Virus record (IMG/VR): IMGVR_UViG_3300037471_001733
Location: 22,201-86,200 of that record
Source of the DNA: a virus
Taxonomy: Duplodnaviria > Heunggongvirae > Uroviricota > Caudoviricetes
Length of the DNA stretch: 64,000 nucleotides
Reading direction: 5' to 3' (one strand)
Part shown: in pieces, positions 11,482 through 62,986 of the stretch
Layout of the letters: every line of letters begins with the position of its first letter
How positions within the stretch are numbered: the first letter of the stretch is position 1
Translations under genes and position numbers: made by a program
The notes under the pieces: generated by a model
Databases searched by the model: none
What the model was told of the DNA's origin: nothing
What the model saw: only the letters and a program-made list of their open reading frames with translations

Positions 11482-11756
11482 TCGGCAGCCTTCCCGTCAC
11501 CGGCACGCGCGCGGATGCCCATCAGGCCCAGGCCCAGCGCCAGCAAGCCGCCGACGATGAAGCCAGCCGGCAGGGAGTACAGGCCGGTGCCATAGGCAAC
11601 AGCCCCGGCGCCGCCCAGCGCCAGCATGTCCGGCATCAGAAAGGCCAACAGTTCGCCGCCGGCCGCAATCAGGCCCAGCATGGCGCGGCCAAGGGTCAAC
11701 ATTCGGCGGGCCAGAAATGTCCTGGCACCGGCGATCTTCGTTCGCAGGTTTTTCAC
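11478..11756 (-). CDS. small membrane protein (hypothetical)
   Basis: 92 aa ORF with two hydrophobic helices between terminase and portal; overlaps both neighbours by 4 nt. Confidence 0.35.
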   Translation of the reverse strand: MKNLRTKIAGARTFLARRMLTLGRAMLGLIAAGGELLAFLMPDMLALGGAGAVAYGTGLYSLPAGFIVGGLLALGLGLMGIRARAGDGKAAE

Positions 11757-13513: not shown

Positions 13514-13955
13514 GAACCTTGGACCTCGCGGCCGGCGTCAGCCCGAACTCGACCAGCCACGCCTTGAAGCGCCGGTCGGCATCGGCCAGCATGGCCACCG
13601 CCGGGTTCGCTTTGATGCTGCGGTCGCCCTGCGTGTTCGTTGTTTCGTAGGTAGGGCCGTCCTGGTTCACCAGTTCCTGATACCGCAGGATCTCGGCGTA
13701 CACGGCGCAGCCTCTCTCAAGGGCGTAGGCATCGGCCTCGGTTAGCACGCCCATCCGATCCAGCAGCACAGACATGCGGCCCCAGGCAACCTTGGCCTCG
13801 TCGGACAAGTGGCTGGGGCAACTAGGTATCTCGCGGCGTGGTTTGGGCTCGCTCTTGTTGAGCGCGCGCCTTCCCGGGTTGCCTGTAACTATTTTTAAGT
13901 GGCTCGGTTTTGGCCTGCGCCCCGCCATATCTCTATTCCTTGACTGGCCAGCCAT
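13455..13955 (-). CDS. terminase small subunit, P27 family
   Basis: 166 aa; 'KPSHLKIVTGNPGRRALN' N-terminus typical of P27-family TerS; precedes TerL. Confidence 0.7.
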   Translation of the reverse strand: MAGQSRNRDMAGRRPKPSHLKIVTGNPGRRALNKSEPKPRREIPSCPSHLSDEAKVAWGRMSVLLDRMGVLTEADAYALERGCAVYAEILRYQELVNQDGPTYETTNTQGDRSIKANPAVAMLADADRRFKAWLVEFGLTPAARSKVHVQNADDDQKEDHLQEFFG

Positions 13956-14214
13956 CCACCCCGATCACCGGCCGAACTCGATGACCTAGATCTCGCGCCG
14001 TTTTGTCACGGTGACAGGGGGTACATAGCCCCTGAGCCTGGCCCGGGTCTTCGTGGAAGTCCTTGCCGCCGTTGACTAGCGCGACTTTGTGGTCCAACTG
14101 AGTTGCGGCAGCAAGTCGGCCATGGCGTGAGCACTCAGCACAAAGCGGGTTCAGCCGCAAGTAGTAGTCGCGGAACCGCTGCAGCGGGCGGCCACGCAAG
14201 CGATCAGTGGCCAT
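13933..14214 (-). CDS. HNH endonuclease (terminase-associated)
   Basis: 93 aa; CxxC ... DHKVAL..GG ... CxxCH HNH motif; directly upstream of TerS. Confidence 0.7.
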   Translation of the reverse strand: MATDRLRGRPLQRFRDYYLRLNPLCAECSRHGRLAAATQLDHKVALVNGGKDFHEDPGQAQGLCTPCHRDKTARDLGHRVRPVIGVDGWPVKE

Positions 14215-14272: not shown

Positions 14273-14359
14273 TGGCGCGGACGGCTGGGCTCGAACCAGC
14301 GACCTGCAGCGCTGGTCTTTGCGAACCCGCTGCTTCTCTACCGGCTGAGATACGCCCGC
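14273..14359 (-). tRNA. tRNA-like gene, 87 nt with encoded CCA; canonical acceptor, D and T arms but aberrant extended anticodon arm (loop CGCAAA) - possible pseudo/unusual phage tRNA
   Basis: minus strand GCGGGCG-TA-TCTCAGCCGGTAGAGA-...-GCTGGTTCGAGCCCAGC-CGTCCGC-G-CCA; no 5bp/7nt anticodon arm can be folded. Confidence 0.4.
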
Positions 14360-14552: not shown

Positions 14553-15449
14553 CTATAACCCCAACTGCAGTTGACCAAGAGACTTGCTTCCCTTGGACCG
14601 GTTGCACCCAAAGCACTCGCACTGCGTGTTGCTATAGCTGTGTGGACCTCCATCGCGCAGGCTGACAACGTGACCAAGCTCCGGTGCGCCCTCAATCCTC
14701 TTGCCCATCTTCGACCTCGGCGTCTTAATGCCGCAAATCTTGCAGCGCCAGCCGTCGCGCTCAAAGACAGACAGCTTGTCCACCTTCTCGTACTCGCAGC
14801 CGAACTTTCTGGCGCGACGCCGATGCGTGGTGCCGCTAGTGGCTCTGTAACGGTAGCTCAGCTGACAGGCTATCGAGCAGTACTTTTGGCGCAGGTCGCC
14901 ATAGTCCGGCGTGAACGCAACTTCGCAGAAGCCGCACTTGCGAGGCGACCGGTCGCGGCTACGCTCTTGCTTCTTCCGATTGTAAACCTTGCTCCTGCAT
15001 TTGCTGCTACAGAAGTTCGCATCCGGCATCTTGGCCATGAAGTCGCGCCCGCAGGACGGGCTGGCGCAGACCCTGGCATAGCGCAGCTTATTCTGGCCGC
15101 GCTCCTTTTTCTCCGGCGCTGGAACGCACTCATAGCAGAACTTGCGCGGCTTGCCGTTCTTAAATAGTGGCTTTGGGTGGCGGCAGCCGTTTTCATTCCG
15201 GGTCCTGCACTCGTCGGAGCAATGACTGCGGCGCAGCTTCGTCGGCTTGAAGGGCATTCCACAGTAGGCGCATAACCGCGGCGGTTTCGGAGGCACGGGC
15301 GGATTCTTCCGTGGTCGTCCAGCGCCAGGACGGCGGCCGCCAGAGTTTGGACGCGGGCCACCGCGCTTTGAACGCGACGCCTCGACCAGTGCGCATAGCG
15401 CGCCTTTGCAGCCGCCAACAGACAGCCGCCTATACTCGCCTTCAACCAT
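14553..15449 (-). CDS. multi-zinc-ribbon protein with C-terminal HNH endonuclease domain
   Basis: 298 aa; at least 6 CxxC pairs, C-terminal 'ELGHVVSLRDGG...CECFGCNRSKGSK' HNH motif; AGGAAG RBS. Confidence 0.65.
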   Translation of the reverse strand: MVEGEYRRLSVGGCKGALCALVEASRSKRGGPRPNSGGRRPGAGRPRKNPPVPPKPPRLCAYCGMPFKPTKLRRSHCSDECRTRNENGCRHPKPLFKNGKPRKFCYECVPAPEKKERGQNKLRYARVCASPSCGRDFMAKMPDANFCSSKCRSKVYNRKKQERSRDRSPRKCGFCEVAFTPDYGDLRQKYCSIACQLSYRYRATSGTTHRRRARKFGCEYEKVDKLSVFERDGWRCKICGIKTPRSKMGKRIEGAPELGHVVSLRDGGPHSYSNTQCECFGCNRSKGSKSLGQLQLGL

Positions 15450-15649
15450 GCTGACTTCCTATACAAGTTGGTATGGCCAGAGACCCGGTCGTGTTGCAAG
15501 CGCGACTGGGTTTCGCCATTTTGGCCTAGAACCAACAAATCTGCTGGACAAAACCACAGTTCCCAGGGCGCCAAGAATTTCCTCTCAAAACGCGCCTCTG
15601 AACAGCAAGGTCAACCGATGGTTTACAAGCCGAGGGCTGGGAAGAACTG

Positions 15650-16190
15650 ATTGGGGTATTGGGGGGTGCGCCTCGACTCTCCCCACGCCCAGCCGCGCCA
15701 GCTGTCAGCGCACGAGCTGCCGCTCAGCACGAGCTGCGCCGCTCGATCCCTGCTGGTGCTGGTGCTGCGCGTTGTCACGAGGGGTGCGGCGCCGCCTGGC
15801 TGTCGAGTGCCTGCGGTTATGTGGCGAGGGTCTGCCGCTGCGCCAGTGCACCCGGGCCGCTGCGCGGCCGTGCTCCTGGTGGTGGCGTGCTGGAGCTCCG
15901 ACCGATCGGCGCAGGCAAGCGCCATGGTGCGAACGGTGCACGAGGGAATGCGGCGCAGTGCTGGTGCCTGCGGCTTAGTGGAGTGCTGCGGCTTTGTGGA
16001 GTGGCGCAACTAGTGGAGTGCGCCGTGCTGCAGGGCATGGCGCCATGGACAGGGGTGCAGCGCTGCTGCGCCGCTGGTGCTGTCTCACCCGTGCCGATCG
16101 GCTTCCGCTGCAGGGGCGCTGGTGCTGGAATGCAGGCACCAAAGCAAAAGGGCCGCACGAGGCGGCCCATGGCGTGGAGTGCTTTGGTCT
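15650..16190. repeat. GC-rich non-coding stretch with short tandem motifs (GCACGAGCTGC x2, GCTGGTGCTG xn, TAGTGGAGTGC/TGTGGAGTGG x3)
   Basis: no convincing ORF/RBS; repeats seen directly in sequence. Confidence 0.3.
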
Positions 16191-16440
16191 AGGTGCTGGC
16201 GGCTTTCCGCTCCCGTCCTATACGGATGGCATGGGCAAGCGCGGCCATCTCCCGACCGTTGTCGTAAGGGCCGCGCGCCACCGGCTTTTTGCTGATGCCT
16301 GCGGCTGGCAGCAGGCCAACGAAGCCGGCTTCGTCCACGAAGTCTAGATATGTCATGGCGCCGATGGTCTTGACTGCGATGACACAAGCAACGCTGCCGC
16401 CGCCGATGGTGGGGCGCATGAAAAGGTCCCCGGCTTGCAT
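16189..16440 (-). CDS. small hypothetical protein (leftward operon, gene 8)
   Basis: 83 aa; start ATG preceded by CTGAGGAGGGGACGCC (stop-in-RBS coupling). Confidence 0.4.
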   Translation of the reverse strand: MQAGDLFMRPTIGGGSVACVIAVKTIGAMTYLDFVDEAGFVGLLPAAGISKKPVARGPYDNGREMAALAHAIRIGRERKAAST

Positions 16441-16452
16441 GGCGTCCCCTCC

Positions 16453-16746
16453 TCAGTGGGCCAGCAGATGCCGCACGCTGGCGCCATCCGGTATCCGCAG
16501 CATTGCCGCCACTGCATCCACGTATTCCGGTGCAGGCCGGCGCAATTTGTACTGCTGGTCTCCATACGAGTTGGGAATGGTGCGCGATTCAATCAAGCCG
16601 CGTTCCCTAAGCGCGCGGAATGCCCGGGTGTCATCTTCTGGCGCCACCTCAGCAGCGGCGGCAATGTCATGCCATGAGGGGAGACGGATAGTCCCGTCTG
16701 CATTGGTACGGGAAGCGAGCAGGGCATACAGACGATTGAGGTTCAT
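16453..16746 (-). CDS. winged-helix/HTH_36-like small DNA-binding protein
   Basis: 97 aa from internal ATG with GAGGGG RBS; 'LYALLASRTNADGTIRLPSWHDIAAAAEV...RALRERGLIE' wHTH pattern. Confidence 0.5.
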   Translation of the reverse strand: MNLNRLYALLASRTNADGTIRLPSWHDIAAAAEVAPEDDTRAFRALRERGLIESRTIPNSYGDQQYKLRRPAPEYVDAVAAMLRIPDGASVRHLLAH

Positions 16747-16757
16747 GGCGCGGCCCC

Positions 16758-17132
16758 TCAGATGTCCCAGACGCCATCCACGGTCGCGCCGTGCGCCGCC
16801 TCGTGGGCGTGCGCCGCGATGGCCGCCACGAGGCGCCCGCCGGGCGTTGCTTCCAACGTATCGCCCTCGCTGCACTGGTACTGCAGGCACCGCGCCAGCG
16901 AATGGAACCATGCGGCGGTCTGATTTGGCATGGGGCGCGCCAGCAGTGCACGCAGGCCCTGCAGCGGCTGCCGATCCTCCGGGTAACGCCCCTCATAGCG
17001 GGTTGCGTGGGCGTAGTTGTTGGCTGCACGCAGCGAGATAGCCGCCTGCGCCGCATCGTCGGCGATGCCCTGGGAAACGGCCCATTGCGCCACGGTGGCC
17101 ACGTGCAGATCAGAGCAGATAAAGCAAGACAT
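16758..17132 (-). CDS. hypothetical protein (leftward operon, gene 6)
   Basis: 124 aa; AGGAG RBS 8 nt upstream. Confidence 0.5.
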   Translation of the reverse strand: MSCFICSDLHVATVAQWAVSQGIADDAAQAAISLRAANNYAHATRYEGRYPEDRQPLQGLRALLARPMPNQTAAWFHSLARCLQYQCSEGDTLEATPGGRLVAAIAAHAHEAAHGATVDGVWDI

Positions 17133-17182
17133 GGTGTGATCTCCTATTGCCGCTCATGCTGGCGGCGCAGCGGGTTGAAGGG

Positions 17183-17452
17183 TTAGTCCTCGCGCGGTGT
17201 CTCAATTTGATGCGGCAGGGGTCGCCCCATGCCGTCGGCGCAGTAAAGGGACGTAGAAGCACCGCACGGCAGGTATGCCGGCGCGTCAATTGGCCCGCCT
17301 GCCGTCACATCCATACATGCCCCGTACCGAAATTGCCGCCGGTCTTGATGCAGATGGATCAATTCGACCGTCTGCCGTTGGACTTGCCCGCCGGTCACAT
17401 TGTGGAAAGCGCCAGCAGCAGCGCGGCGGATGGTTTCTGATTGCATGGACAT
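17183..17452 (-). CDS. hypothetical protein (leftward operon, gene 5)
   Basis: 89 aa from ATG at 17452 preceded by conserved CTGAGGAGCGAACC cassette. Confidence 0.5.
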   Translation of the reverse strand: MSMQSETIRRAAAGAFHNVTGGQVQRQTVELIHLHQDRRQFRYGACMDVTAGGPIDAPAYLPCGASTSLYCADGMGRPLPHQIETPRED

Positions 17453-17466
17453 GGTTCGCTCCTCAG
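17450..17466 (-). promoter_or_regulatory. translational-coupling cassette CTGAGGAGCGAACCATG (copy 3 of 3 identical)
   Basis: identical 17-mer (stop TGA + GGAG RBS + 6 nt + ATG) at 17450-17466, 17679-17695, 18174-18190. Confidence 0.5.
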
Positions 17467-17681
17467 TTGAAGCCCTTGTCCGCCTCGATCTGGCGCAGGA
17501 TCTCGACTGCCTCAGCGATCGGCACGAAGTCAGACAGGGGGTCAACAATCGTTTTCTTGCCCACGGTCACCAGCACGACGCGAAACTTTCCGCGCGCCGC
17601 CTCAGTGCTGATTCCGGGCATGCCGGTGGCGGCGCGCGCGGCAAGGGTGGCGGCTCGCAATTGCTTGAGTTGCTCAAACAT
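17463..17681 (-). CDS. hypothetical protein (leftward operon, gene 4)
   Basis: 72 aa; start inside cassette copy 2. Confidence 0.5.
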   Translation of the reverse strand: MFEQLKQLRAATLAARAATGMPGISTEAARGKFRVVLVTVGKKTIVDPLSDFVPIAEAVEILRQIEADKGFN

Positions 17682-17695
17682 GGTTCGCTCCTCAG
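17679..17695 (-). promoter_or_regulatory. translational-coupling cassette CTGAGGAGCGAACCATG (copy 2)
   Basis: identical 17-mer. Confidence 0.5.
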
Positions 17696-17931
17696 ATACC
17701 GAAAACTTGATTGATCGCAGCGCGGCGCAGTGCCTCGCAGTGCATCTGCGCCACGGGTTGATTGATCTCGTCCACCACGTCAAGTGCATCGTTAACGGCA
17801 TCCATGAGATGCGCCATGGCGATATCTTCCGGGTTTGCTTCTACGTGATTGCGCAACTGCAGGCGGGCGCTCAGCAGGTTTTCGACGATCACGTCGAATT
17901 GCTTGACATGCATGGTCACAGGGGTGGGCAT
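17692..17931 (-). CDS. hypothetical protein (leftward operon, gene 3)
   Basis: 79 aa from ATG 17931 (TGA-AAGGTCGAGCC-ATG junction). Confidence 0.5.
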   Translation of the reverse strand: MPTPVTMHVKQFDVIVENLLSARLQLRNHVEANPEDIAMAHLMDAVNDALDVVDEINQPVAQMHCEALRRAAINQVFGI

Positions 17932-17942
17932 GGCTCGACCTT

Positions 17943-18176
17943 TCAGCGCATGTTGATGTAACCCGGCATGCCGAGTGCGCGCGCCAGCACGTTTGCCGCG
18001 TGGCGGTCTGCAAGGTTGCATATCAGGTACTTGGCCTGCGCGACCGCTTCGAAGTGCGCGCTCTGCGCCTCTTCGTATTCCTGATGGGTTCGATTGCTGT
18101 CGCCGATCATGTGCACGTGGCCACCGATGGCGGGCCGCAATTCCTTGGCGATGCTGATGGCAGTTCGGATATTCAT
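17943..18176 (-). CDS. hypothetical protein (leftward operon, gene 2)
   Basis: 77 aa from ATG 18176 inside cassette copy 1. Confidence 0.5.
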   Translation of the reverse strand: MNIRTAISIAKELRPAIGGHVHMIGDSNRTHQEYEEAQSAHFEAVAQAKYLICNLADRHAANVLARALGMPGYINMR

Positions 18177-18190
18177 GGTTCGCTCCTCAG
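18174..18190 (-). promoter_or_regulatory. translational-coupling cassette CTGAGGAGCGAACCATG (copy 1)
   Basis: identical 17-mer. Confidence 0.5.
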
Positions 18191-18318
18191 TGCGCCGCAC
18201 GAATGGCGGCAATGTCTGCATGGATCAGCGCGCGGACTTGCAGGCGGCGCACGAGGGATTGATCGTTGCGCATGGGTAGCAGAACCCGCAGCGCATACAT
18301 AAGAGAGAAACGAGACAT
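18187..18318 (-). CDS. 43-aa leader ORF (first gene of leftward operon)
   Basis: MSRFSLMYALRVLLPMRNDQSLVRRLQVRALIHADIAAIRAAH; GGGGTTGAG RBS; its TGA sits in cassette copy 1; just downstream of leftward promoter. Confidence 0.3.
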   Translation of the reverse strand: MSRFSLMYALRVLLPMRNDQSLVRRLQVRALIHADIAAIRAAH

Positions 18319-18366
18319 CTCAACCCCTTGCCACTGATTACGCGCGGCGCCGTTTGGTATGTCTCT

Positions 18367-18395
18367 AATGTAGGCGATACGACTACATGATGCAA
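18367..18395 (-). promoter_or_regulatory. leftward promoter (-35 TTGCAT, 17-nt spacer, -10 TACATT) with embedded palindromic operator O1 ATGTAGGCGATACGACTACAT (TGTAG-N9-CTACA)
   Basis: seen in sequence; operator occupies the spacer. Confidence 0.55.
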
Positions 18396-18667
18396 GCCCT
18401 TGCGCAAACTTTTTTCATGCGCCATGGCGGCGCGGCTGCACGTATATTGATAGTGCTGCGCCGCATAGGTGCGGCTTTGCTTTGCCTGCTCGCTTTTGCC
18501 TGCTGGTGCTGCAGCATGGGCACGAGTGCCTGCGCCATGGATGCGCCGCACTGGTCTGCGCGCCGTGCGCCGCCTCGTGCTGATCAGCTGCGCCGCCGGT
18601 CGAGCTGGTGCGCGACGTTGAGCGGCTGCCTCGTGCTGGCAATCGAGCGAGTGCGCGACCTGGCGCA

Positions 18668-18766
18668 CCCCCTCTGATGGAAACACAGGCAACCCCCTGG
18701 AGTGGAAACACAGGCCAGGCGCACCCTCTCCACGGGAATTACGGAACCCCCTGAGATGGAAACAGG
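18668..18766. repeat. iteron cluster A: 3 direct repeats plus 1 degenerate copy of CCCCCT-N4-GTGGAAACA(CA)GG
   Basis: 18668-18689, 18693-18714, 18747-18766; degenerate 18724-18744. Confidence 0.6.
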
Positions 18767-18784
18767 AATTCACAAATAAACTAC

Positions 18785-18813
18785 TTGCGTTCTGTAGTCG
18801 TTGCGCCTACATT
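18785..18813 (+). promoter_or_regulatory. rightward promoter (-35 TTGCGT, 17-nt spacer, -10 TACATT) with operator O2 TGTAGTCGTTGCGCCTACA
   Basis: mirror-image twin of the leftward promoter/O1, about 430 bp away; GGAG RBS and ATG 18873 downstream. Confidence 0.55.
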
Positions 18814-18872
18814 GGACACATCGCAGCACTGCTGCAGCGGCGCCACCCGCGACGAGTGGCACTGGAGTTGAT

Positions 18873-19547
18873 ATGTTTGGAAAATACGGCAAGCGGATTA
18901 CCGATCCTGCGGAACTGCGCGAGTATCGTTTGAGCTATGTCCCGGCCGCGCTGCGCGACCAGTGCCAGCACGTGAAGTGCAAAACCGGCGATGCTGAGGC
19001 GTGGATCTGGAGCGACAAGGGCCGCGCCTACGCGGTGGGTTTCTCCGGTCGCGGCAAACACCCGTGGTCGCGCAATGGTGGCCAGGGAGCGGCCTACTAC
19101 TTCAAAACCCCGGAAGCGCGCCGCTCCTGGGTTGCGGAACTGTTTGCAGACGCCATGGCCGACGCAAAGCGCGCCGAGGAGCGCAAGGCGCAAAAGGCCG
19201 CAGCGCGTGCAAAGCCGCACGCCTTGCAGGTGGGAGATGTGTTGCGCTCCTCCTGGGGGTACGACCAAACCAATATCGACTATTACGAGGTCACGAAGCT
19301 TGTCGGCTCACAGATGGTCGAGGTTCGGCGCATTGCCTGCCAGTCTGAGGAAACCGCGCACATGCAAGGCGTGAGCGTTCCCGCCCCTGGCCACTACATC
19401 GGCGAGCCGAAGCGTTGCAAGGTCTCCGACTACGGCAACCGCGACTCGGTCAAGGTGTCCGAGGTGGCGCACGCCTACAAGATGACCCCGCGCATCGTCG
19501 GCGGCGTCAAGGTTTTCAACTCGTCTAGCTGGACGGCCTACGCCTGA
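18873..19547 (+). CDS. hypothetical protein (first rightward gene of module)
   Basis: 224 aa from ATG with GGAG RBS at -8. Confidence 0.5.
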   Translation: MFGKYGKRITDPAELREYRLSYVPAALRDQCQHVKCKTGDAEAWIWSDKGRAYAVGFSGRGKHPWSRNGGQGAAYYFKTPEARRSWVAELFADAMADAKRAEERKAQKAAARAKPHALQVGDVLRSSWGYDQTNIDYYEVTKLVGSQMVEVRRIACQSEETAHMQGVSVPAPGHYIGEPKRCKVSDYGNRDSVKVSEVAHAYKMTPRIVGGVKVFNSSSWTAYA

Positions 19548-19605
19548 TCAACCAGGGCCGCTCATGCGGCGGCCCCCTTACGTGAATTTCACAGGAGCAC
19601 CGACC

Positions 19606-19908
19606 ATGGGCACCACGACCGGCCGACTCTTCCGCACGATCCGCAGCACGGGACGTGGAAGCGACTACTTCGGCACCTGCGACCAGTGCGGCAAGCACAT
19701 GAGCGAATGCCACGTGAGCCAAGTTCAGCGCGAATATCGGCGCGACGATGGCACCACGTACACCGGGCCCGTGACCGGCGGCGCCTATGGGCATCGTGAG
19801 TGCTTGGTCAAGCACTTCGGCGAACCCGTCCCAGCGGTGACGCGCGAATCCGTGCGAGTTTCGCCCTTTACTGATCCGGCGCGCTTCCCCAAAACGCTGC
19901 GCGCCTGA
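19606..19908 (+). CDS. small zinc-binding protein (CDQC...H...C)
   Basis: 100 aa from ATG with AGGAG RBS; stop lies in TGACCCCTTCC motif. Confidence 0.5.
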   Translation: MGTTTGRLFRTIRSTGRGSDYFGTCDQCGKHMSECHVSQVQREYRRDDGTTYTGPVTGGAYGHRECLVKHFGEPVPAVTRESVRVSPFTDPARFPKTLRA

Positions 19909-19916
19909 CCCCTTCC
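19906..19916 (+). promoter_or_regulatory. conserved post-gene motif TGACCCCTTCC (copy 1 of 3; stop codon is first triplet)
   Basis: identical 11-mer at 19906, 20338, 21883, each time ending a gene. Confidence 0.4.
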
Positions 19917-19944
19917 GTAGATTGCACAGCAGGAGCACCACACC

Positions 19945-20340
19945 ATGGGAGCAGCAGCAGAACACCGGGGCAATGCCCTGATCCGCAGGCAGGCCGGCGC
20001 AGCGCATGCCGCGCGCCAAGCCATCGAGGACGCAGCGCGCGCCGCGCAGGTGGCCGAGGACTGCAACGAGTTTGCCCGCCAAGCGTGGGCGTATCTGCTC
20101 GACCCTTCCGGCCTGCGGCAACCCGCAGTGGAGCGCGCAAAGACTCGGCGCGGCTGGGCTAAGCGCCATGCGGAACTCAGTGCCGCGCATTGCGCATGGG
20201 TTGATGCGGACCATCGCAACGCCATGGCCTACCTTAGCGCCTGCATCCGCCGCGCGAAAGCCGCGCATGCGCTACTCACATTTGCGCTGGGCGGCTGGAC
20301 GATCCCGGATCACATTGAAGTGCCGCGCGCTGCGGCTTGA
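19945..20340 (+). CDS. hypothetical protein
   Basis: 131 aa, AGGAG RBS; ends in TGACCCCTTCC copy 2 (20338-20348). Confidence 0.5.
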   Translation: MGAAAEHRGNALIRRQAGAAHAARQAIEDAARAAQVAEDCNEFARQAWAYLLDPSGLRQPAVERAKTRRGWAKRHAELSAAHCAWVDADHRNAMAYLSACIRRAKAAHALLTFALGGWTIPDHIEVPRAAA

Positions 20341-20453
20341 CCCCTTCCGGCGCACTCGCAAGGGTGCGCATTGCGATGCAGCCACGCGGAAGCATCGCAA
20401 TGCGCCAGCGCGCATAACGGCGCCGTCCCGGCTTGAGGCGGCAGGAGATTCAG

Positions 20454-22262
20454 ATGTCAGCACAAGACTTGATTGTTAGGATCAACGCAGCCGCCCAGGT
20501 GGCCCCGGAGCAACTGCCCAAAGGGGCGCAGCCGCGCGACCACATGATTGCCTTTGAGTACACCGACGCCCACGGCACGCGCGGCTGCATGCGCATCCTG
20601 AACACCCGGGCGCGGCTGCTGGCCTTCGCTGAGCAGGTGCGGAAGAACGCGGCAGCATTCGACGGCAAGCCGCGCAGCAAGCCCGCCGGGCCGCGCAAGA
20701 TTGCCGGCGCATCCCCGCTTTCCACGGCGCGCGCACTGCTCAAGGATGGCGCGCGGGTTGAAGCCCTCGCAGCGCTTGAGGCGCGCGGCGGGGAGGTGTT
20801 TTTCGGCGCCGCTGGCGTGCCTGTGCTGCATCAGGTTGCACAGCGCGTGGAGCACGAGGGCCGCCGCTGGGTTGTCACGCGCTGCGCCGTTGATGGTCTC
20901 ATCTACCTCATTCACGAGGCGTCCGGGCTGTCAGCAGGCGGCAAGGGCTTGCCTGAGATGCGCAGCATTGCGGATGCCCTGGCGCGGCTTGAGCTCGTGC
21001 ACCGGGACGAGGCGGAAAACGGCTACCGGCAGCGAATGATTGCTGCGATCGAGCAAGCGGCGGATTACGACCAGCAGGCGGCGCGCGCGGCTTTCGAGGC
21101 GTGCGATGGTCTCAAGAGCAAGGATGCCGCGCCGGTGGCTCAGGAAGCGTACCAGCAGGCGCGCGCGCTGTCGGCGGCGCAGGTGGCGCCCGATGTCGAG
21201 CCGGCAGTAGATGCAGACCCCTCCCCGGTGGAAAGCGAAGCCGAGGCGGCACCCCCTGTAGCGGAAACGCCTGCGGCAGCTGACACCCCTGCAGCGGAAA
21301 TCGAGTCCAGCGCGCCGGCGGTTGCGCCAGCATCCCCTCCGGCGGATTCACAGGCAGGCGCTGCACCCCCTGCGATGGAAAGCGCGCAGCCTGCGCCGCT
21401 TGCCACCGCGCCAGGCCGATCGGATGCGCTCATCGCGCGGGCCATCGCTTGGGTTGCCGTAGTCTGGGGAACCGCCAGCGTGCCGAGCGTTGCGGACTAC
21501 CGCGCCGGCCGGTGCGATGACACATTCCCGTGGGCGGGCGGCAGCCGCGCCGCCGGCTATCTGACATGGGCCGACCTCATTGGCGAGTGCATGGCCGCGC
21601 TGGAGCGCGACGACAGCGCCGACCAGGCGGCACGAGACGCCGCACTGCAACCACCGACCCCCATCCGTAGGAAAGGCCCGCGACAACATGAGCAGCACAC
21701 CCCATCCCGTGCAACCCGCAGTGCCAACCGGCCGCGAGTGGTGGACCCGCGGGCTGCTCGACTGGCACGCCGAGGCGCTGCACGCCGCCCAGGAGATCGC
21801 CGCGCTGCGCGAATCACTGGCTGCGGAGCGCGCAATGGTCCGCGAGCTGCAGGAGGCGCTCGCTGCCCGCCGGCAGGCCGCTTGACCCCTTCCCGGGGAA
21901 TCACGGCGCCACAAGCTTGCCGCCCCTGGCGCGACGCCAGCGAAACCCGAGACTGCACCCATAAAAACCTGGAGCACAGCATGACCTACACCGAAGCCAT
22001 CCAAGCCCTGCGCGACGCTATTGCGCAGGCCCCGAAGGGTGAAAAGCTGCAAGCCTTCCAAGCCAAGCGGGAGAAGATAATAGGGGCAATGCCCAAGGTG
22101 GAAATCTGTGGCGGCGAGCAGTGCATCCGCTATCCCAAGGGCTACCGCTTTGACTGCGGTCGCGAGGTCCACACGGACTGGATGTGGCAACCGTTTGCCA
22201 GCGAGGAAATCGCCATGCGGCCTGGCAACCTGCCGTACATCCTGCGCATGCCGGCTGCCTGA
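20454..22262 (+). CDS. iteron-containing ORF (candidate replication-initiator-like protein); 3' third is probably read-through overlapping two separately translated small genes
   Basis: ATG 20454 with AGGAG RBS; no in-frame stop until 22262; central P/A/E-rich linker encoded by iterons; Arg-rich junk-like translation 21650-21980. Confidence 0.4.
   Translation: MSAQDLIVRINAAAQVAPEQLPKGAQPRDHMIAFEYTDAHGTRGCMRILNTRARLLAFAEQVRKNAAAFDGKPRSKPAGPRKIAGASPLSTARALLKDGARVEALAALEARGGEVFFGAAGVPVLHQVAQRVEHEGRRWVVTRCAVDGLIYLIHEASGLSAGGKGLPEMRSIADALARLELVHRDEAENGYRQRMIAAIEQAADYDQQAARAAFEACDGLKSKDAAPVAQEAYQQARALSAAQVAPDVEPAVDADPSPVESEAEAAPPVAETPAAADTPAAEIESSAPAVAPASPPADSQAGAAPPAMESAQPAPLATAPGRSDALIARAIAWVAVVWGTASVPSVADYRAGRCDDTFPWAGGSRAAGYLTWADLIGECMAALERDDSADQAARDAALQPPTPIRRKGPRQHEQHTPSRATRSANRPRVVDPRAARLARRGAARRPGDRRAARITGCGARNGPRAAGGARCPPAGRLTPSRGITAPQACRPWRDASETRDCTHKNLEHSMTYTEAIQALRDAIAQAPKGEKLQAFQAKREKIIGAMPKVEICGGEQCIRYPKGYRFDCGREVHTDWMWQPFASEEIAMRPGNLPYILRMPAA
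21218..21385. repeat. iteron cluster B inside coding sequence: 4 repeats plus 1 degenerate copy (CCCCTCCCCGGTGGAAAGCG, CCCCCTGTAGCGGAAACGCC, CCCCTGCAGCGGAAATCG, CCCCCTGCGATGGAAAGCGC)
   Basis: 21218-21237, 21252-21270, 21286-21303, 21366-21385; degenerate 21334-21354; each encodes P-P/A-V/A-E-S/T. Confidence 0.6.
21688..21885 (+). CDS. small coiled-coil protein (65 aa), overlaps the long ORF in another frame
   Basis: AGGAAAGG RBS; ends in TGACCCCTTCC copy 3 (21883-21893). Confidence 0.45.
   Translation: MSSTPHPVQPAVPTGREWWTRGLLDWHAEALHAAQEIAALRESLAAERAMVRELQEALAARRQAA
21980..22262 (+). CDS. small Cys-containing protein (94 aa)
   Basis: internal ATG with GGAG RBS, same frame as long ORF, clean stop. 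Confidence 0.45.
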
Positions 22263-22345
22263 CGCATTGTCCGGTGGCGCAGCCTTTGGCGTTCAGCGCT
22301 ATTTGAACAAGGTGCGCGGTTTAGTTCAGGCGTACTTGAATAGCG

Positions 22346-22395
22346 CCCCCCCATGTAGTGAAAACAGGGCATCAACCCCATCCAGCGGATACAGG
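22346..22395. repeat. iteron cluster C (2 copies: CCCCCCCATGTAGTGAAAACAGGG, CCCCATCCAGCGGATACAGG)
   Basis: second copy overlaps RBS of next gene. Confidence 0.5.
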
Positions 22396-22404
22396 AGTCA
22401 AACC

Positions 22405-22695
22405 ATGGGAAGTATCAACCTCGGCCGCCACCACGTCGCCATCAGCGATCAATGGACGATCTACACCCCTGGCCTACCTGGCTGGCAGATGCTGGGCGTG
22501 ATCACCCGCAGCAAGGGTGGCGAGCAGATCACGAAGGCGCTGGCCCGCAGCCCGAAGGGCGAGCTCTGCGCGGTGCGTGGGCTGTCAGCCGAGCCGCTTG
22601 TCCAGCGAAAGGCTGAAGCGGCGCTGGCGGCTGCGATGCGCGAGGCCCATCCGGTGGAAACAGATGGCACCCATTCCGAGGGAAACAGGGCTTGA
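22405..22695 (+). CDS. hypothetical protein (96 aa) with C-terminal iteron-encoded tail
   Basis: AGGAG RBS; last 15 codons are iteron cluster D. Confidence 0.5.
   Translation: MGSINLGRHHVAISDQWTIYTPGLPGWQMLGVITRSKGGEQITKALARSPKGELCAVRGLSAEPLVQRKAEAALAAAMREAHPVETDGTHSEGNRA
22646..22690. repeat. iteron cluster D (2 copies: CCCATCCGGTGGAAACAG, CCCATTCCGAGGGAAACAGGG)
   Basis: seen in sequence. Confidence 0.5.
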
Positions 22696-22719
22696 ATATG
22701 TAGGTTAAGCGCCTACACT
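22692..22719 (+). promoter_or_regulatory. promoter/operator O3 (-35 TTGAAT, 16-nt spacer containing TGTAGGTTAAGCGCCTACA, -10 TACACT); predicted leaderless start at ATG 22726
   Basis: third TGTAG-N9-CTACA palindrome with same architecture as O1/O2; -10 ends 6 nt before ATG, no RBS. Confidence 0.5.
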
Positions 22720-22725
22720 GGCATC

Positions 22726-22956
22726 ATGAGCACCTTACCGCCGCGCACGCCAGAGAACATCAAAGCCTTCCGCCAGCGTGCCGGCTGGACGCAGGAGAAG
22801 GCATGCGAGATGGCGTGCATCCACGACCGCCAAACCTGGCGTAAGTACGAAAACGGCACGCTCAAGATGAGCGAAGAGCGCTGGCGGCTGGCGCACTTTA
22901 TGGCCAACCTGCACCCCGACTTCGACGTTCGGCCGCGTACCAAGGCTGCGGCCTAG
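22726..22956 (+). CDS. XRE-family helix-turn-helix regulator (candidate repressor of the TGTAG-N9-CTACA operators)
   Basis: 76 aa; 'IKAFRQRAGWTQEKACEMACIHDRQTWRKYENG' HTH_XRE signature. Confidence 0.7.
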   Translation: MSTLPPRTPENIKAFRQRAGWTQEKACEMACIHDRQTWRKYENGTLKMSEERWRLAHFMANLHPDFDVRPRTKAAA

Positions 22957-22989
22957 CCTTCGCCCTCTGAGTACCGCCGGGAGGCGGCG

Positions 22990-23334
22990 TCAACCGTTTG
23001 GGTTCTGTGCCAGCCAAGCCCGGATCATCGCCTTGACCGCGGCGTGCAGGCCGTGTGGCGCGTAGACGCCACGCACTTCCTCGATACCTCTTTCCTTGAG
23101 CAGGGCCCTTCTTGCTCGATTCCTCTCTGTCGAGCTCTTCCCCGAAGGGGCTTTCGCGGTGGCGTTCATGAGCAGTTCCGTGCCATCGATTTTCTTCTCA
23201 GGCAAGGAGCAGGGGGCCAGTTCGCACTCTGCGGGAGCATTTGAGGGGGGCGGTTTGTTCTCGACCATTTGGCATTGACCCGTCGCGCGCGACGGTCCAT
23301 CATTCTTCGCTTTTCGACGATCAGAAGCCGCCAT
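22990..23334 (-). CDS. ribbon-helix-helix-like small DNA-binding protein (start possibly internal at ~23166)
   Basis: 'KSSTERNRARRALLKERGIEEVRGVYAP' resembles RHH/antitoxin-like S.AER.R.YR.R....G...V.VW.P motif. Confidence 0.45.
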   Translation of the reverse strand: MAASDRRKAKNDGPSRATGQCQMVENKPPPSNAPAECELAPCSLPEKKIDGTELLMNATAKAPSGKSSTERNRARRALLKERGIEEVRGVYAPHGLHAAVKAMIRAWLAQNPNG

Positions 23335-23433
23335 AAGTTGTGATGCGGCCGGAGTGCGCTAGTTGCAAGAACTATCAATTGGCATTCTCAAGGCGCAAGC
23401 GTGTCTTGCCAAGACTTTGTTGCACAGAGAGCG

Positions 23434-23449
23434 GCATGGATGCCGCTTT
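23434..23449. promoter_or_regulatory. perfect 16-bp palindrome GCGGCAT-GG-ATGCCGC in divergent intergenic region
   Basis: seen in sequence. Confidence 0.35.
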
Positions 23450-23568
23450 TGCGTTTGTGCAATCACCTCGAAAGGTTCCTGCCAGAGGATGCCGCCGATT
23501 GCCCACTATGGGGCAGGAACCAGTTCCACAATCGAAGCGCCACGCACTACGAAGAGTGGAGTTGCGCC

Positions 23569-24279
23569 ATGGACTGCGGCAAGAGAAGAACATGGGAGTG
23601 TGGCGTGACAACGAACTCTAAGAGGCTTTCTGGTAGACCATCTTTTAATTGGTCTATACCTGAGCCAGAAGAAGTTAAAGAAGTTAGATTGAAAGCCAAT
23701 TTGTCTCAGAGAGAAGCTTGTAATCTTTCTGGGATTAAAGAAGTAATGACTTGGAGTAATTGCGAAACTAGGAGAGCCGATGGCACTCCTAAGGCCCGCA
23801 TGGACCCAATTAGATGGGAATATTTCCTTCTAATAGTTGGACAACATTCCAAATTCGTTATTCTTCCGAGACTCGGGGTTGAACAGCCAAGAGAGGCGGC
23901 AGCTTTAACTAGGAAAGGTCCGTCTCTGCCTGGGGAGAACATTACTTTCGCAGTCGAGAGCCGAACTAGTGAAGACGAGTGGCGCTTGGTAGAAGGCGGA
24001 CAGTTCACAGCTCTGACTGCGGCATGTGTGGCCATAGACACGATGGTTGCCTGCAGGAACCTAAATGAACTAAGGGTGTCGCGTTACTCAGGTGGCGACT
24101 TCGTGATGGCAGTGCATGGGCCTGGTGTCTCTATGGACGAAGGCCCGAAGCGTTTTACCCATGCAAAGGCTGCGCCATCTCGAAGGACTGGGACTGACAG
24201 GAACGGAGCAGACCCAGGAGACCCAGATAATGATGGAAATGGAAGCAGAAATTCCAATGGTTTCGACCCTCAGGATTGA
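23569..24279 (+). CDS. HTH_XRE-domain protein with uncharacterised approx. 150-aa C-terminal domain, encoded in a low-GC island
   Basis: GGAG RBS; 'VKEVRLKANLSQREACNLSGIKEVMTWSNCE' HTH; AGA/AGG/TCT/AAT-rich codon usage unlike the rest of the window. Confidence 0.6.
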   Translation: MDCGKRRTWECGVTTNSKRLSGRPSFNWSIPEPEEVKEVRLKANLSQREACNLSGIKEVMTWSNCETRRADGTPKARMDPIRWEYFLLIVGQHSKFVILPRLGVEQPREAAALTRKGPSLPGENITFAVESRTSEDEWRLVEGGQFTALTAACVAIDTMVACRNLNELRVSRYSGGDFVMAVHGPGVSMDEGPKRFTHAKAAPSRRTGTDRNGADPGDPDNDGNGSRNSNGFDPQD

Positions 24280-24306
24280 CATTCCCCGAAATAGGGAAGC
24301 CCAGGA

Positions 24307-25227
24307 TCAGCCACCTTGGGCATGCAGGAACCTTCGCATTTCTCGCTCCACCTCGCCGAGCATCTCGCTCATGCGGTCAAGCATGTGGCCCGCAAAGCGG
24401 CGCTGGACATCGGTCTCGCCAAGCGACTCACGAACCAGGCCGGTGCCTCGGCAGAAGCGGCACTTCATCTGCAGCGCAGAGCCGTAGGCACCCTGGGTAT
24501 CCTTCCCTCCTTTCTTGCCGACGCGCGGCTGCGATTGAAGTACCGATCCGACGCCGCAGCACGGACCACAACGGGGATTGAGCCAACTGCGCAGCACGCG
24601 GCCTGTGATCGCCGCCACAGCCTTGTCGGACAGGCTGCTTTGCTGGGCTGCCTTGGTGACCCGTCGATGCCATTCTTGATGCCGAGCTCGCAACTGCTCG
24701 TCGGTCTCGCCCTGCCGCCGTCTCGGTTCGGCCGGCAGCCGGAGTCCCTGCAGCGGGAACTTTGAGGCTTCGATGGTTGCCCAGCGGAACAGCGCGTCGC
24801 GCGCCGACTCCAGCGTCCTCAGCTTCGACAACATCAGCGCTTGCTCGGAGATCGCCTCGCGCTTAGCTTGGTCGCGCAGCGCTTCAAGGTCGGCGATCTT
24901 CTGCTCAAGCACCTCCTTGTCCTGCGCCGCCTGGCTCAGCATCAGCCGCGAAACCTCCTTCGCTGCCGACTTGATCGCCTCCTCCAGTTGGATCTGACGC
25001 CTCAAGGCCAGCGCGTGATCGCCTTTCACGCCGTCCCACTCGACGTGCAGTCTGAGCAGCAGTGGCGCAAGCGCACGCTCGGCATTGCCGCGATACCGGC
25101 TCTCGACGCAGCCGGCGGCGATGAGCAAGTCGACGTCCGTGATGCGTAGTCTGTTGACTTTCAAGCGCTTGGCAGTGATGGCCTGGCCGTACCGCTCTTC
25201 AATGGTGATAGGGGCGTCGGAAGTCAC
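24307..25227 (-). CDS. DnaJ-type zinc-finger (2x CxxCxGxG) protein with coiled-coil, at the lambdoid Q position
   Basis: 306 aa; 'CGPCCGVG' and 'CRFCRGTG' motifs; last gene of early-right operon. Confidence 0.55.
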   Translation of the reverse strand: MTSDAPITIEERYGQAITAKRLKVNRLRITDVDLLIAAGCVESRYRGNAERALAPLLLRLHVEWDGVKGDHALALRRQIQLEEAIKSAAKEVSRLMLSQAAQDKEVLEQKIADLEALRDQAKREAISEQALMLSKLRTLESARDALFRWATIEASKFPLQGLRLPAEPRRRQGETDEQLRARHQEWHRRVTKAAQQSSLSDKAVAAITGRVLRSWLNPRCGPCCGVGSVLQSQPRVGKKGGKDTQGAYGSALQMKCRFCRGTGLVRESLGETDVQRRFAGHMLDRMSEMLGEVEREMRRFLHAQGG

Positions 25228-32305: not shown

Positions 32306-32316
32306 AGGTTCTTCTT

Positions 32317-62957: not shown

Positions 62958-62986
62958 TGGTACTCCAGAAAATCAGATTCGTGGGC

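What the first reader, a model, noticed from the sequence alone, without database searches (positions are those of the whole stretch)
15450..24290. Self-contained approx. 9-kb module with its own operators, iterons and regulators, wedged between the early-right (Q-position) and late (terminase) operons
Between the last early-right gene (24307) and the HNH/TerS genes lies a block with divergent operons, three matching operator-promoters, an iteron family, an XRE repressor candidate and a low-GC moron. This is distinct from the Cro/CI-like switch at 44.65 kb. It may be a nested satellite-like element, a second replicon/immunity system, or evidence that two prophages are fused here.
Basis: inference. 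Interest (0 to 1): 0.75.

Follow-up and report, generated by a model that had tools for sequence, protein, structure and literature searches.

The report
Self-regulated accessory gene island in prophage
The 9-kb block is not a hidden satellite or a second prophage: it is a built-in but highly shuffled accessory island of this phage lineage, with its own repressor-and-operator switch, and one of its genes has relatives in the first-entering "leading regions" of over 2,000 conjugative plasmids, which suggests (unproven) a role in getting established in a new host.

Summary
Window 15450-24290 lies between the last early-right gene (24307-25227, minus) and the HNH/TerS/TerL genes. It contains two divergent operons, three copies of one promoter type with a TGTAG-N9-CTACA palindrome in the spacer, a 76-aa XRE protein, a repeated CCCCT-N5-GGAAAC motif and a low-GC insert.

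The interpretation mostly fails. The block has no integrase, replication initiator, structural gene or edge repeats. Its GC content (62.8%) matches the phage (63.9%).

A related prophage in Azohydromonas aeria (TerL 85% identical) carries a 16.5-kb block of the same design at the same place. It shares three genes, the promoter family and a junction motif. Two metagenomic relatives reshuffle the same gene pool.

The first plus-operon gene (224 aa, no known function) recurs next to HNH/terminase genes in several other phages, often followed by an XRE76-type gene. Its C-terminal domain matches 2,501 plasmid records, 2,298 of them conjugative. In the IncL plasmid examined it sits in the leading region beside antirestriction and ssb genes.

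Best reading: an integral, plastic accessory island under an Aca-like autorepressor, probably for establishment or anti-defence. That function is inferred, not shown.

The parts
15450..16188 (.). 740-bp non-coding gap between the minus operon and the 298-aa HNH gene. It holds a terminator-like hairpin (16150-16168, minus strand) directly after the 83-aa gene and an 18-nt tandem repeat (15968-16021). It may hold the late promoter or packaging signals.
   Evidence: No gene was called here in the Logan assembly. Terminator scan. Tandem repeat. Sequence. The promoter/packaging role is inferred.
16189..18318 (-). Leftward operon of eight small genes: 43 aa (18187-18318), 77 aa (17943-18176), 79 aa (17692-17931), 72 aa (17463-17681), 89 aa (17183-17452), 124 aa (16758-17132), 97 aa (16453-16746, weak winged-HTH) and 83 aa (16189-16440).
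   Evidence: Gene calls. Three genes share the start context ACTGAGGAGCGAACCATG (D9). HTH_Crp_2 E=1.8e-5, below the curated cutoff. The 43-aa gene is homologous to the first gene behind the same promoter type in two relatives. No Pfam or PHROG family for the rest.
18359..18396 (-). Leftward promoter P_L: -35 TTGCAT, 17-nt spacer, -10 TACATT. The operator TGTAG-N9-CTACA (18369-18387) lies in the spacer.
   Evidence: (I1).
18397..18783 (.). 387-bp spacer between the two divergent promoters. It holds three to four copies of ACCCCCT-N5-GGAAACA (18667-18769) just upstream of P_R.
   Evidence: (D1-D3). Function unknown; a regulator or UP-like site is inferred.
18784..18821 (+). Rightward promoter P_R: -35 TTGCGT, 17-nt spacer, -10 TACATT. 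The operator is at 18793-18811.
18873..19547 (+). 224-aa protein, first gene of the rightward operon. Member of a large uncharacterised phage/plasmid family (phrog_37844) with the invariant motif WGYDQTN.
   Evidence: PHROG E=1.2e-28. 520 viral loci. 265 homologs, none named. AF2 model pLDDT 93 with no informative fold match. 2,501 plasmid records, 2,298 of them conjugative. Leading-region context in an IncL plasmid.
19606..20340 (+). 100-aa gene (19606-19908, Cys/His-rich) and 131-aa gene (19945-20340). The 131-aa gene is 76% identical to an Azohydromonas block gene.
20454..22262 (+). 602-aa ORF. The N-terminal ~400 aa is 57-62% identical to the 773-aa protein of the Azohydromonas block and has a Pro/Ala-rich linker. 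The 3' part probably hides two small genes (21688-21885 and 21981-22262).
   Evidence: homology. A segment is shared with the C-terminal part of the 275-aa Azohydromonas protein that has LPD29/LPD30 Pfam hits. Frame analysis.
22405..22695 (+). 96-aa gene. Its 3' end carries two degenerate CCCNT-N5-GGAAACAG copies that abut the third promoter.
22692..22719 (+). Third promoter P_xre: -35 TTGAAT, 16-nt spacer, -10 TACACT. The operator is at 22699-22717. The predicted transcript start coincides with the ATG at 22726, giving a leaderless mRNA, and there is no Shine-Dalgarno sequence.
   Evidence: The leaderless start is inferred from spacing.
22726..22956 (+). 76-aa XRE-family HTH protein, last gene of the rightward operon. 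It is the candidate repressor of all three operators.
   Evidence: HTH_31 E=1.1e-6. phrog_3 repressor E=2e-7. 36% identical to the HTH_31 protein of an equivalent module in L142. The same domain type is duplicated in the Azohydromonas block. XRE of this type sits directly downstream of the 224-aa homolog in 9 viral loci and within 1 kb in 2 more.
22957..24306 (.). Low-GC insert (53.8% GC) with a divergent gene pair: a 92-aa gene (22990-23268, minus) and a 236-aa gene with a weak N-terminal HTH (23569-24279, plus). The 236-aa gene converges on the 306-aa gene.
   Evidence: GC. Gene calls. Promoter-like sites at 23275-23303(+) and 23412-23384(-). The same 236-aa/306-aa junction occurs in relative L152, where the homolog is 72% identical and also low-GC.
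19907..21893 (+). Junction motif TGACCCCTTCC at the stop codons of three plus-operon genes (19907, 20339, 21884). It is shared with the Azohydromonas block.
   Evidence: 3 matches in the window and 6 in L131, against 0.07 and 0.02 expected.

Best explanation
The block is an integral, lineage-conserved but highly plastic accessory island of the prophage. It sits at the genome end next to the HNH/terminase genes.

Two divergent operons fire from a block-specific family of sigma-70-type promoters. Each promoter carries a TGTAG-N9-CTACA palindrome between the -35 and -10 elements. A third copy of the same promoter drives the last gene of the rightward operon, a 76-aa XRE protein, probably as a leaderless mRNA.

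Inferred mechanism: XRE76 binds all three operators. The island would then fire strongly when the DNA enters a cell that lacks XRE76, and be shut down and kept silent once XRE76 accumulates. This is the logic of anti-CRISPR-associated (Aca) repressors and of plasmid leading-region control.

Inferred function: the cargo serves establishment or counter-defence. The cargo includes the 224-aa family shared with conjugative-plasmid leading regions and a large protein sharing a segment with a protein that carries polyvalent-protein domains. A 1.35-kb low-GC gene pair is a separate, later acquisition.

Shown: the anatomy, the non-random repeats, and conservation of position, promoters and gene pool in relatives.
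Inferred: who binds the operators, the timing, and the function.
For: (1) Promoter and operator triplet. It is exact, unique to the block and statistically unexpected. The six promoters from two phages align with invariant TTG / CGCCTA / T / CA.

(2) Same place, same design in Azohydromonas aeria. Between the 306-aa homolog and the HNH genes lies a 16.5-kb bidirectional block with three matching promoters. It shares the 43-aa, 131-aa (76%) and 602-aa (57%) genes, while TerL is 85% and TerS 83% identical.

(3) The gene pool recurs and is reshuffled. L148 has the promoter, then the 43-aa homolog, then the 224-aa homolog (70%), with a 602-aa homolog on the divergent strand. L152 has the 306-aa homolog (63%) converging on a low-GC 236-aa homolog.

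(4) The 224-aa family lies beside the HNH/terminase genes in unrelated phages. Its orientation varies, and it often sits with RadC/JAB or DUF4942 genes (L141-L144, L149-L150).

(5) XRE76-type genes follow the 224-aa homolog within 12-124 nt in 9 viral loci and within 1 kb in 2 more. Those operons have consensus promoters with a palindrome in the spacer. L141 has a TCTAG-N9-CTAGA site of the same 5-N9-5 geometry.

(6) The C-terminal domain of the 224-aa protein matches 2,501 plasmid records, 2,298 of them conjugative. In the pOXA-48-type IncL plasmid examined it lies between DUF4942, JAB, an antirestriction gene, ssb and mobA. In the IncX1 plasmid examined it lies near the relaxase.

(7) The Azohydromonas block encodes an AcrVA2-like protein and a protein with LPD29/LPD30 domains.

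(8) Literature. Leading regions are anti-defence hotspots (PMC11541004). Aca HTH proteins encoded at the end of acr operons repress the operon promoter through inverted repeats (PMC9410906, PMC8633003).

(9) There are no mobility or replication genes, no edge repeats and no compositional break.
Against: - No protein in the window's block matches any known anti-defence, Acr or Aca family.
- XRE76 binding to the palindromes is untested. Other HTH candidates exist in the block: the 97-aa winged-HTH and the 236-aa protein.
- The CCCCT-N5-GGAAAC repeats are unexplained.
- The plasmid match covers only residues ~117-206 at 33-38% identity, and only two plasmid contexts were inspected.
- 'First DNA to enter' rests on analogy with lambda/HK97 packaging polarity; cos was not mapped.
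- Only one full-length relative of the block exists in the collections searched.
Confidence: 0.6

Rival explanations
1. Prophage-encoded defence or toxin-antitoxin cassette. The 224-aa protein would be a toxin or effector and XRE76 its antitoxin and autorepressor. The island would be expressed from the lysogen to exclude other phages.
For: The 224-aa/XRE gene pair is conserved and often adjacent, with 12-nt spacing, and has a palindrome in the promoter. That is also the layout of toxin-first type II TA operons. The island is antisense to the flanking lytic operons, as lysogen-expressed morons often are. XRE76 has a weak hit to the MqsA-type antitoxin HTH.
Against: No PADLOC hit. In the window the two genes are 3.2 kb and several genes apart. 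In L143, L144, L149 and L150 no XRE gene is called next to the 224-aa homolog. In the IncL plasmid examined the domain stands alone in the leading region next to Hha. An unneutralised toxin would not be tolerated there.
Confidence: 0.13
2. Second immunity or antirepressor region of the P22 immI or 186 tum kind. A local repressor would hold back an antirepressor that inactivates the main CI-like repressor.
For: There is a separate repressor/operator circuit outside the main switch. The divergent promoters and small regulators recall Pant/Pmnt. The location near the genome end recalls tum of phage 186 (own knowledge).
Against: No Ant, Bro-N or KilA-C domain in any block protein. No TGTAG-N9-CTACA site lies at the main switch. 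No LexA-box-like sequence was seen in the promoters (read by eye). The cargo differs almost completely between relatives, which is unlike a dedicated induction device.
Confidence: 0.1
3. Part of the phage's own timing cascade. The leftward operon would be the head of the late operon reading into the HNH/terminase genes, and XRE76 a timing regulator.
For: The leftward operon is co-directional with the HNH/terminase genes in the window, in Azohydromonas and in L142. No late promoter or Q-like gene has been identified elsewhere.
Against: A terminator-like hairpin with a T-run follows the last leftward gene, and then comes a 740-bp gap. In L144, L149 and L150 the orientation is reversed, so the 224-aa operon is the one reading toward the HNH gene. 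The small genes are not conserved between relatives.
Confidence: 0.08
4. Nested satellite, independent replicon or remnant of a second prophage fused here.
For: Own regulators, repeated motifs and divergent operons. The position is wedged between two phage operons. One low-GC segment is present.
Against: No integrase, Rep/primase, partition, capsid or packaging gene. No direct repeats at the edges. GC is 62.8% against 63.9%. An equivalent block sits at the same site in a related prophage, with homologous promoters. The repeats lie next to promoters, not next to an initiator gene.
Confidence: 0.03

Closest known systems
acr-aca operons (anti-CRISPR loci repressed by Aca HTH proteins; PMC9410906, PMC8633003, PMC13551039)
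   Same: A small HTH protein is encoded last in the operon. Inverted repeats overlap a strong operon promoter. The upstream cargo is variable and mostly unannotated. An AcrVA2-like gene ends the equivalent operon in the Azohydromonas block.
   Different: No known Acr or Aca family was detected in the window. There are three promoter copies controlling two divergent operons plus the regulator's own leaderless promoter. The cargo is about 6 kb rather than one to three small genes. A conserved 224-aa partner gene is present.
Leading regions / anti-defence islands of conjugative plasmids (PMC11541004)
   Same: The 224-aa C-terminal domain is shared (2,298 conjugative plasmid records). In phages the 224-aa family keeps company with RadC/JAB and DUF4942 genes, as it does in the IncL leading region examined. 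The island probably lies on the first-entering DNA end (inferred).
   Different: It is a dsDNA phage, so there are no ssDNA (Frpo) promoters. There is no ssb, psiB, ardA or klcA in the window. Control is by an XRE/operator circuit.
Phage P22 immI region (ant, arc, mnt)
   Same: It is an extra repressor/operator unit with divergent promoters, located outside the main immunity region and close to late genes.
   Different: There is no antirepressor homolog and no recognisable Arc/Mnt-type ribbon-helix-helix pair. The content is hypervariable between relatives.
Moron / accessory hot spots between the late regulator and packaging genes of lambdoid phages (for example stx between Q and lysis; own knowledge)
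   Same: The genomic position is the same, the cargo is variable, and there is local compositional deviation (the low-GC 92/236-aa pair).
   Different: Here the hot spot has a conserved promoter family, a conserved junction motif and a dedicated regulator, rather than isolated self-contained morons.

Membership tests
Phage satellite (PICI / P4-like / PLE) | Own integrase and flanking att direct repeats | tested here: not met
   No integrase or recombinase domain in the block ORFs scanned. The longest word shared between the edges is 11 nt, with 0.57 expected by chance.
Phage satellite (PICI / P4-like / PLE) | Own replication initiator/primase and genes that hijack helper capsid or packaging | tested here: not met
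   Pfam, PHROGs and NCBIfam scans found none.
Iteron-type replicon | Rep initiator gene next to tandem iterons with an AT-rich unwinding region | tested here: not met
   The repeats CCCCT-N5-GGAAAC exist but lie upstream of promoters. There is no Rep gene. The spacer region is 60.8% GC. The phage's own DnaC-like loader is at 40817-41650.
Second (fused) prophage | A second set of structural, integration or replication modules, or a compositional break | tested here: not met
   None found. GC is 62.8% against 63.9%. A related prophage has the same layout.
acr-aca operon | HTH regulator encoded at the 3' end of the operon | tested here: met
   XRE76 (22726-22956) is the last gene of the rightward operon.
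acr-aca operon | Inverted-repeat operator overlapping the operon promoter | tested here: met
   TGTAG-N9-CTACA lies between -35 and -10 in P_R, P_L and P_xre. Only the sequence was examined; binding was not tested.
acr-aca operon | Homology to a known Acr or Aca family | tested here: not met
   There is no such Pfam or PADLOC hit in the window. An AcrVA2-like domain occurs only in the Azohydromonas block. Dedicated Aca HMMs were not available.
acr-aca operon | Repression of the promoter by the HTH protein; inhibition of CRISPR-Cas by the cargo | not testable with these tools
   Needs reporter assays, EMSA and phage plating.
Plasmid-leading-region-type anti-defence island | Gene families shared with leading regions | tested here: met
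   The 224-aa C-domain matches 2,298 conjugative plasmid records. The IncL context includes DUF4942, JAB, an antirestriction gene, ssb and mobA. Only one of the block's proteins meets this, and only two plasmid contexts were inspected.
Plasmid-leading-region-type anti-defence island | Location on the DNA that enters the recipient first | not testable with these tools
   Inferred from adjacency to the HNH/terminase genes (HNH genes lie next to cos, PMC3592412) and from lambda-type packaging polarity (own knowledge). Neither cos nor polarity was mapped.
P22 immI-type second immunity region | Antirepressor gene (ANT / Bro-N / KilA-C) under Mnt/Arc-type control | tested here: not met
   No such domains found.
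Type II toxin-antitoxin | Adjacent, co-translated toxin and antitoxin genes; the toxin never occurs alone | tested here: not met
   The two genes are 3.2 kb apart in the window. The 224-aa family occurs without a called adjacent XRE gene in L143, L144, L149 and L150 and in the IncL plasmid examined.

The most novel reading that the evidence does not exclude
cos-type temperate phages of this kind may carry a phage counterpart of the plasmid leading region. This would be a hypervariable island on the first-injected genome end, fired from a conserved promoter family and then shut off by a cognate XRE repressor. Its cargo would be a pool of still-unknown counter-defence or establishment proteins. 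That pool includes the 224-aa WGYDQTN family, which is shared with more than 2,000 conjugative plasmid records. Cassettes would be exchanged at a short conserved junction motif (TGACCCCTTCC).
Probability: 0.3. Interest if true: 0.7.

Novelty: new variant of a known kind. Interest (0 to 1): 0.45.

Why it matters
The anatomy gives a clean, testable regulatory circuit: three operators, one small repressor, and one leaderless autoregulated promoter. It controls about 15 genes, of which only the two HTH candidates have any family assignment.

The lead gene's family is abundant in phages. It also occurs in clinically important conjugative plasmids (IncL pOXA-48 type, IncX1) at the place where anti-defence genes concentrate.

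If the island does serve establishment or counter-defence, it offers a guilt-by-association handle for finding new anti-defence genes in both phages and plasmids. The handle would be the XRE76-type regulator, the 224-aa gene and the promoter family. It would also link how phages and plasmids protect their entering DNA.

If not, it remains an ordinary moron-type accessory region, although an unusually well organised one.

Tried and rejected
Searches that found nothing
- Megablast of the block against 50,697 phage records: no match.
- tblastn of the 306-aa protein against phages: no match.
- The closest TerL among isolates is only 66% identical, so no isolate comparison was possible.
- The 602-aa protein: no relative in viral contigs or plasmids.
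- A genome-contig scan with the 224-aa protein found only distant relatives, 48% at best. None carried other block genes.

Family and structure searches
- Pfam, PHROGs, PADLOC and NCBIfam left almost all block proteins unassigned.
- The afdb50 library was unavailable.
- PDB sequence searches were empty.

Other dead ends
- Rfam found only a weak symR-like hit at 15444-15517 (31 bits against a gathering score of 61). I treat it as chance.
- tblastx against the Azohydromonas locus was too noisy in this GC-rich DNA to use; I relied on blastn and tblastn instead.
- The junction motif does not form a conserved hairpin.
- I considered the 602-aa ORF as one polyvalent protein. The frame analysis suggests a ~405-aa gene followed by two small genes. 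This is unresolved.

Full report
**Context.** The window is a ~64% GC lambdoid, HK97-like prophage.
- The late genes run leftward: TerL 11753-13513, TerS 13455-13955, and HNH genes at 13933-14214 and 14553-15449.
- The early-right operon also runs leftward, from the switch near 44.65 kb down to a 306-aa gene at 24307-25227. It includes a DnaC/IstB-like loader at 40817-41650.
- The early-left arm encodes RecT, a YqaJ exonuclease and RdgC.
- The finding is the stretch between these, 15450-24290.

**Check of the observation.** Gene calls come from an independent Logan assembly that carries exactly the same HNH and 306-aa proteins and the same gene order. A GC3 analysis supports them.
- A leftward operon of eight small genes spans 18318->16189. 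A terminator-like hairpin with a T-run follows at 16168-16150, then a 740-bp non-coding gap.
- A rightward operon spans 18873->22956, with genes of 224, 100, 131, 602, 96 and 76 aa.
- A divergent 92-aa/236-aa pair sits in a low-GC segment: 22957-24306 is 53.8% GC and the 236-aa gene 49.2%, against 63.9% for the window.

**The three 'operator-promoters' are real.**
- TGTAG-N9-CTACA occurs exactly three times in 64 kb, at 18369, 18793 and 22699. No shuffle out of 100 reached the observed count.
- Each lies in the spacer of a sigma-70-like promoter: TTGCAT-17-TACATT (leftward), TTGCGT-17-TACATT (rightward) and TTGAAT-16-TACACT.
- The promoter skeleton TTG-N15/16-CGCCTA-N3-T is found nowhere else in the window.
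- The third promoter ends 7 nt before the ATG of the 76-aa XRE gene (HTH_31 E=1.1e-6), which has no Shine-Dalgarno sequence. A leaderless transcript is therefore likely; this is inferred from spacing.

**The 'iterons' are a real repeat but not replication iterons.** CCCCT-N5-GGAAAC gives 8 matches at up to 1 mismatch against 0.84 expected, all inside the block. Three to four copies lie just upstream of the rightward promoter, two degenerate copies abut the XRE promoter, and three fall inside the Pro/Ala-rich part of the 602-aa ORF. Nothing connects them to replication.

**Is it an independent element?** No.
- Pfam, PHROGs, PADLOC and NCBIfam scans of the block ORFs found no integrase, replication initiator, partition, capsid or packaging gene.
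- The two edges share no direct repeat beyond chance.
- The main block has the composition of the phage.

**The decisive evidence is comparative.**
- *Azohydromonas prophage.* Both the 306-aa and the 602-aa proteins have a homolog on one contig of Azohydromonas aeria. That contig carries a related prophage: TerL 85%, TerS 83%, small HNH 54%, 156-aa membrane protein 62% and 306-aa protein 40% identical.
- *Same site, same design.* Between its 306-aa homolog and its HNH genes lies a 16.5-kb block of the same design. It has leftward strings of small genes, and a long rightward operon that converges on the 306-aa homolog.
- *Shared features.* It shares the 43-aa gene, the 131-aa gene (76%) and the N-terminal ~330 aa of the 602-aa protein (57%). 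Gene order differs.
- *Promoters.* It has three copies of the same promoter type. These align with the window's three, with invariant TTG, CGCCTA, T and CA, but carry a different palindrome in the spacer.
- *Junction motif and regulator.* It shares the junction motif TGACCCCTTCC at gene ends, 6 copies against 3 in the window with none expected. It also encodes a protein made of two XRE76-type HTH domains.
- *Shorter relatives.* L152 has the 306-aa homolog (63%) converging on a low-GC 236-aa homolog (72%). L148 has a promoter of the same family, then a 47-aa homolog of the 43-aa gene, then a 224-aa homolog (70%), with a 602-aa homolog on the other strand and a second promoter copy carrying its own palindrome, GTTCATTGAAC.

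The block is a conserved feature of the lineage, with shuffled content.

**What might it do?** The first rightward gene (224 aa) belongs to a large unnamed family: phrog_37844, 520 viral loci and 265 close homologs. A confident AlphaFold model (pLDDT 93) has no informative neighbour in PDB or BFVD. Context is more telling.
- *In other phages.* The gene again lies between the end of the early genes and the HNH/terminase genes, in a small unit of variable orientation. This holds for L141/L142, L143, L144 and L149/L150. In L144, L149 and L150 it sits with RadC/JAB or DUF4942 genes.
- *With an XRE gene.* In nine viral loci an XRE76-type gene follows it within 12-124 nt, and in two more within 1 kb. 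Those operons have near-consensus promoters with a palindrome in the spacer. The XRE of L142 is 36% identical to XRE76, and a TCTAG-N9-CTAGA site of the same geometry lies in that module.
- *On plasmids.* The C-terminal domain matches 2,501 plasmid records, 2,298 of them conjugative. In the pOXA-48-type IncL plasmid examined it sits in the leading region, among DUF4942, JAB, an antirestriction gene, ssb and mobA. In the IncX1 plasmid examined it is near the relaxase.
- *Supporting hints.* Leading regions are known anti-defence hotspots (PMC11541004). The Azohydromonas block encodes an AcrVA2-like protein and a protein with LPD29/LPD30 domains whose C-terminal part resembles a segment of the 602-aa protein. 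Homologs of the 131-aa gene lie in other mobile contexts, next to an LPD1 protein and a resolvase, or next to a Wadjet-like cluster.

**Proposed mechanism.**
- *Shown:* three homologous promoters with one shared palindrome, and a small XRE protein encoded last and behind its own copy.
- *Inferred:* XRE76 represses all three, so the island is expressed as a pulse in a cell that lacks XRE76 and is then silenced. This is how Aca proteins control acr operons (PMC9410906, PMC8633003).
- *Inferred from lambda/HK97 knowledge:* HNH genes lie next to cos (PMC3592412) and the last-packaged end is injected first. If so, the island would be among the first DNA to enter.
- The function, establishment or counter-defence, rests on guilt by association only. 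No block protein matches a known anti-defence family.

**Rivals.**
- A defence/TA cassette is weakened because the 224-aa family occurs without an adjacent XRE gene in several phages and in the IncL plasmid examined.
- An immI-like antirepressor region lacks any Ant-type domain and any operator at the main switch.
- A late-operon head is weakened by the terminator after the leftward operon and by the reversed orientation in other phages.
- A satellite, replicon or fused prophage is essentially excluded.

**Verdict.** The 'independent element' interpretation is not supported. The 'own regulatory circuit' part is supported. This is a new variant of a known kind, a self-regulated accessory (probably anti-defence) island, of moderate interest. 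The main reasons are the clean circuit and the link between a widespread phage gene family and plasmid leading regions.

Noticed in passing
window 14276-14359 (-): Rfam tRNA match (48.7 bits, E=4e-8) in the 338-bp gap between the two HNH genes. ARAGORN calls nothing there. The 84-nt element has good acceptor, D and T arms but an over-long anticodon region. It could be a degenerate or intron-bearing phage tRNA, or a tRNA-like element near cos.
   Followed up: partly
window 20454-22262 (+); L131 10001-12322: The 602-aa ORF looks like three genes read as one. Third-position GC drops in frame 0 after about 21650. A 65-aa gene (21688-21885) with its own ribosome-binding site sits in frame +1, and a 93-aa gene starts at 21981. 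One extra C in the C5 run at 21656-21662 would create a TAG stop at 21667. The Azohydromonas homolog (773 aa) shows the same Arg-rich read-through, so it may be a conserved overlap or frameshift rather than an error.
   Followed up: partly
window 19907, 20339, 21884; L131 7115, 7201, 9211, 15113, 16350, 20716: The motif TGACCCCTTCC (stop codon plus 8 nt) marks gene ends on the plus strand of the island in both phages and occurs nowhere else in the window. It may be a recombination boundary for cassette shuffling. It does not form a conserved hairpin.
   Followed up: partly
window 20366-20407 (+): A perfect 14-bp stem (GCGCATTGCGATGC...GCATCGCAATGCGC) lies in the 113-nt spacer between the 131-aa and 602-aa genes. 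It may be an attenuator or processing site (z = -2.2).
   Followed up: no
window 15968-16021 and 15450-16188: An 18-nt tandem repeat (3.1 copies; CACTCCAC(T/A)A units on the minus strand) lies inside a 740-bp GC-rich non-coding gap upstream of the 298-aa HNH gene. The Azohydromonas prophage has a similar ~1-kb stretch, annotated there as a 265-aa ORF whose translation looks non-protein-like. These are candidate packaging or late-promoter signals.
   Followed up: no
window 24307-25227 (-): The 306-aa last early-right gene is a coiled-coil protein with two DnaJ-type CxxCxGxG zinc-finger motifs. It is conserved at the same position in three relatives at 40-63% identity. Given its position it could be the late regulator (Q-like), but no family matches.
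   Followed up: partly
window 18187-18318 (-); L131 8350-8499; L148 836-979: A 43-49-aa Arg-rich helical protein is always the first gene behind this promoter type, whichever operon follows (16 invariant residues). It may be a small regulator.
   Followed up: partly
window 62949-62967: A one-mismatch copy of the operator (TGTAGTCATTGGTACTCCA) lies far from the block, between two minus-strand ORFs near the right end of the window. It is probably chance.
   Followed up: no
window 31457-32527 (-): A 356-aa SPFH/Band-7 protein (E=7e-13) is encoded inside the long early-right operon, which is otherwise almost entirely without family assignments.
   Followed up: no
L141 9500-9518: In the unrelated phage L141 a one-mismatch copy of its module's TCTAG-N9-CTAGA site lies in front of the operon encoding ERF and YqaJ. 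In that phage the XRE may therefore also touch an early promoter.
   Followed up: no
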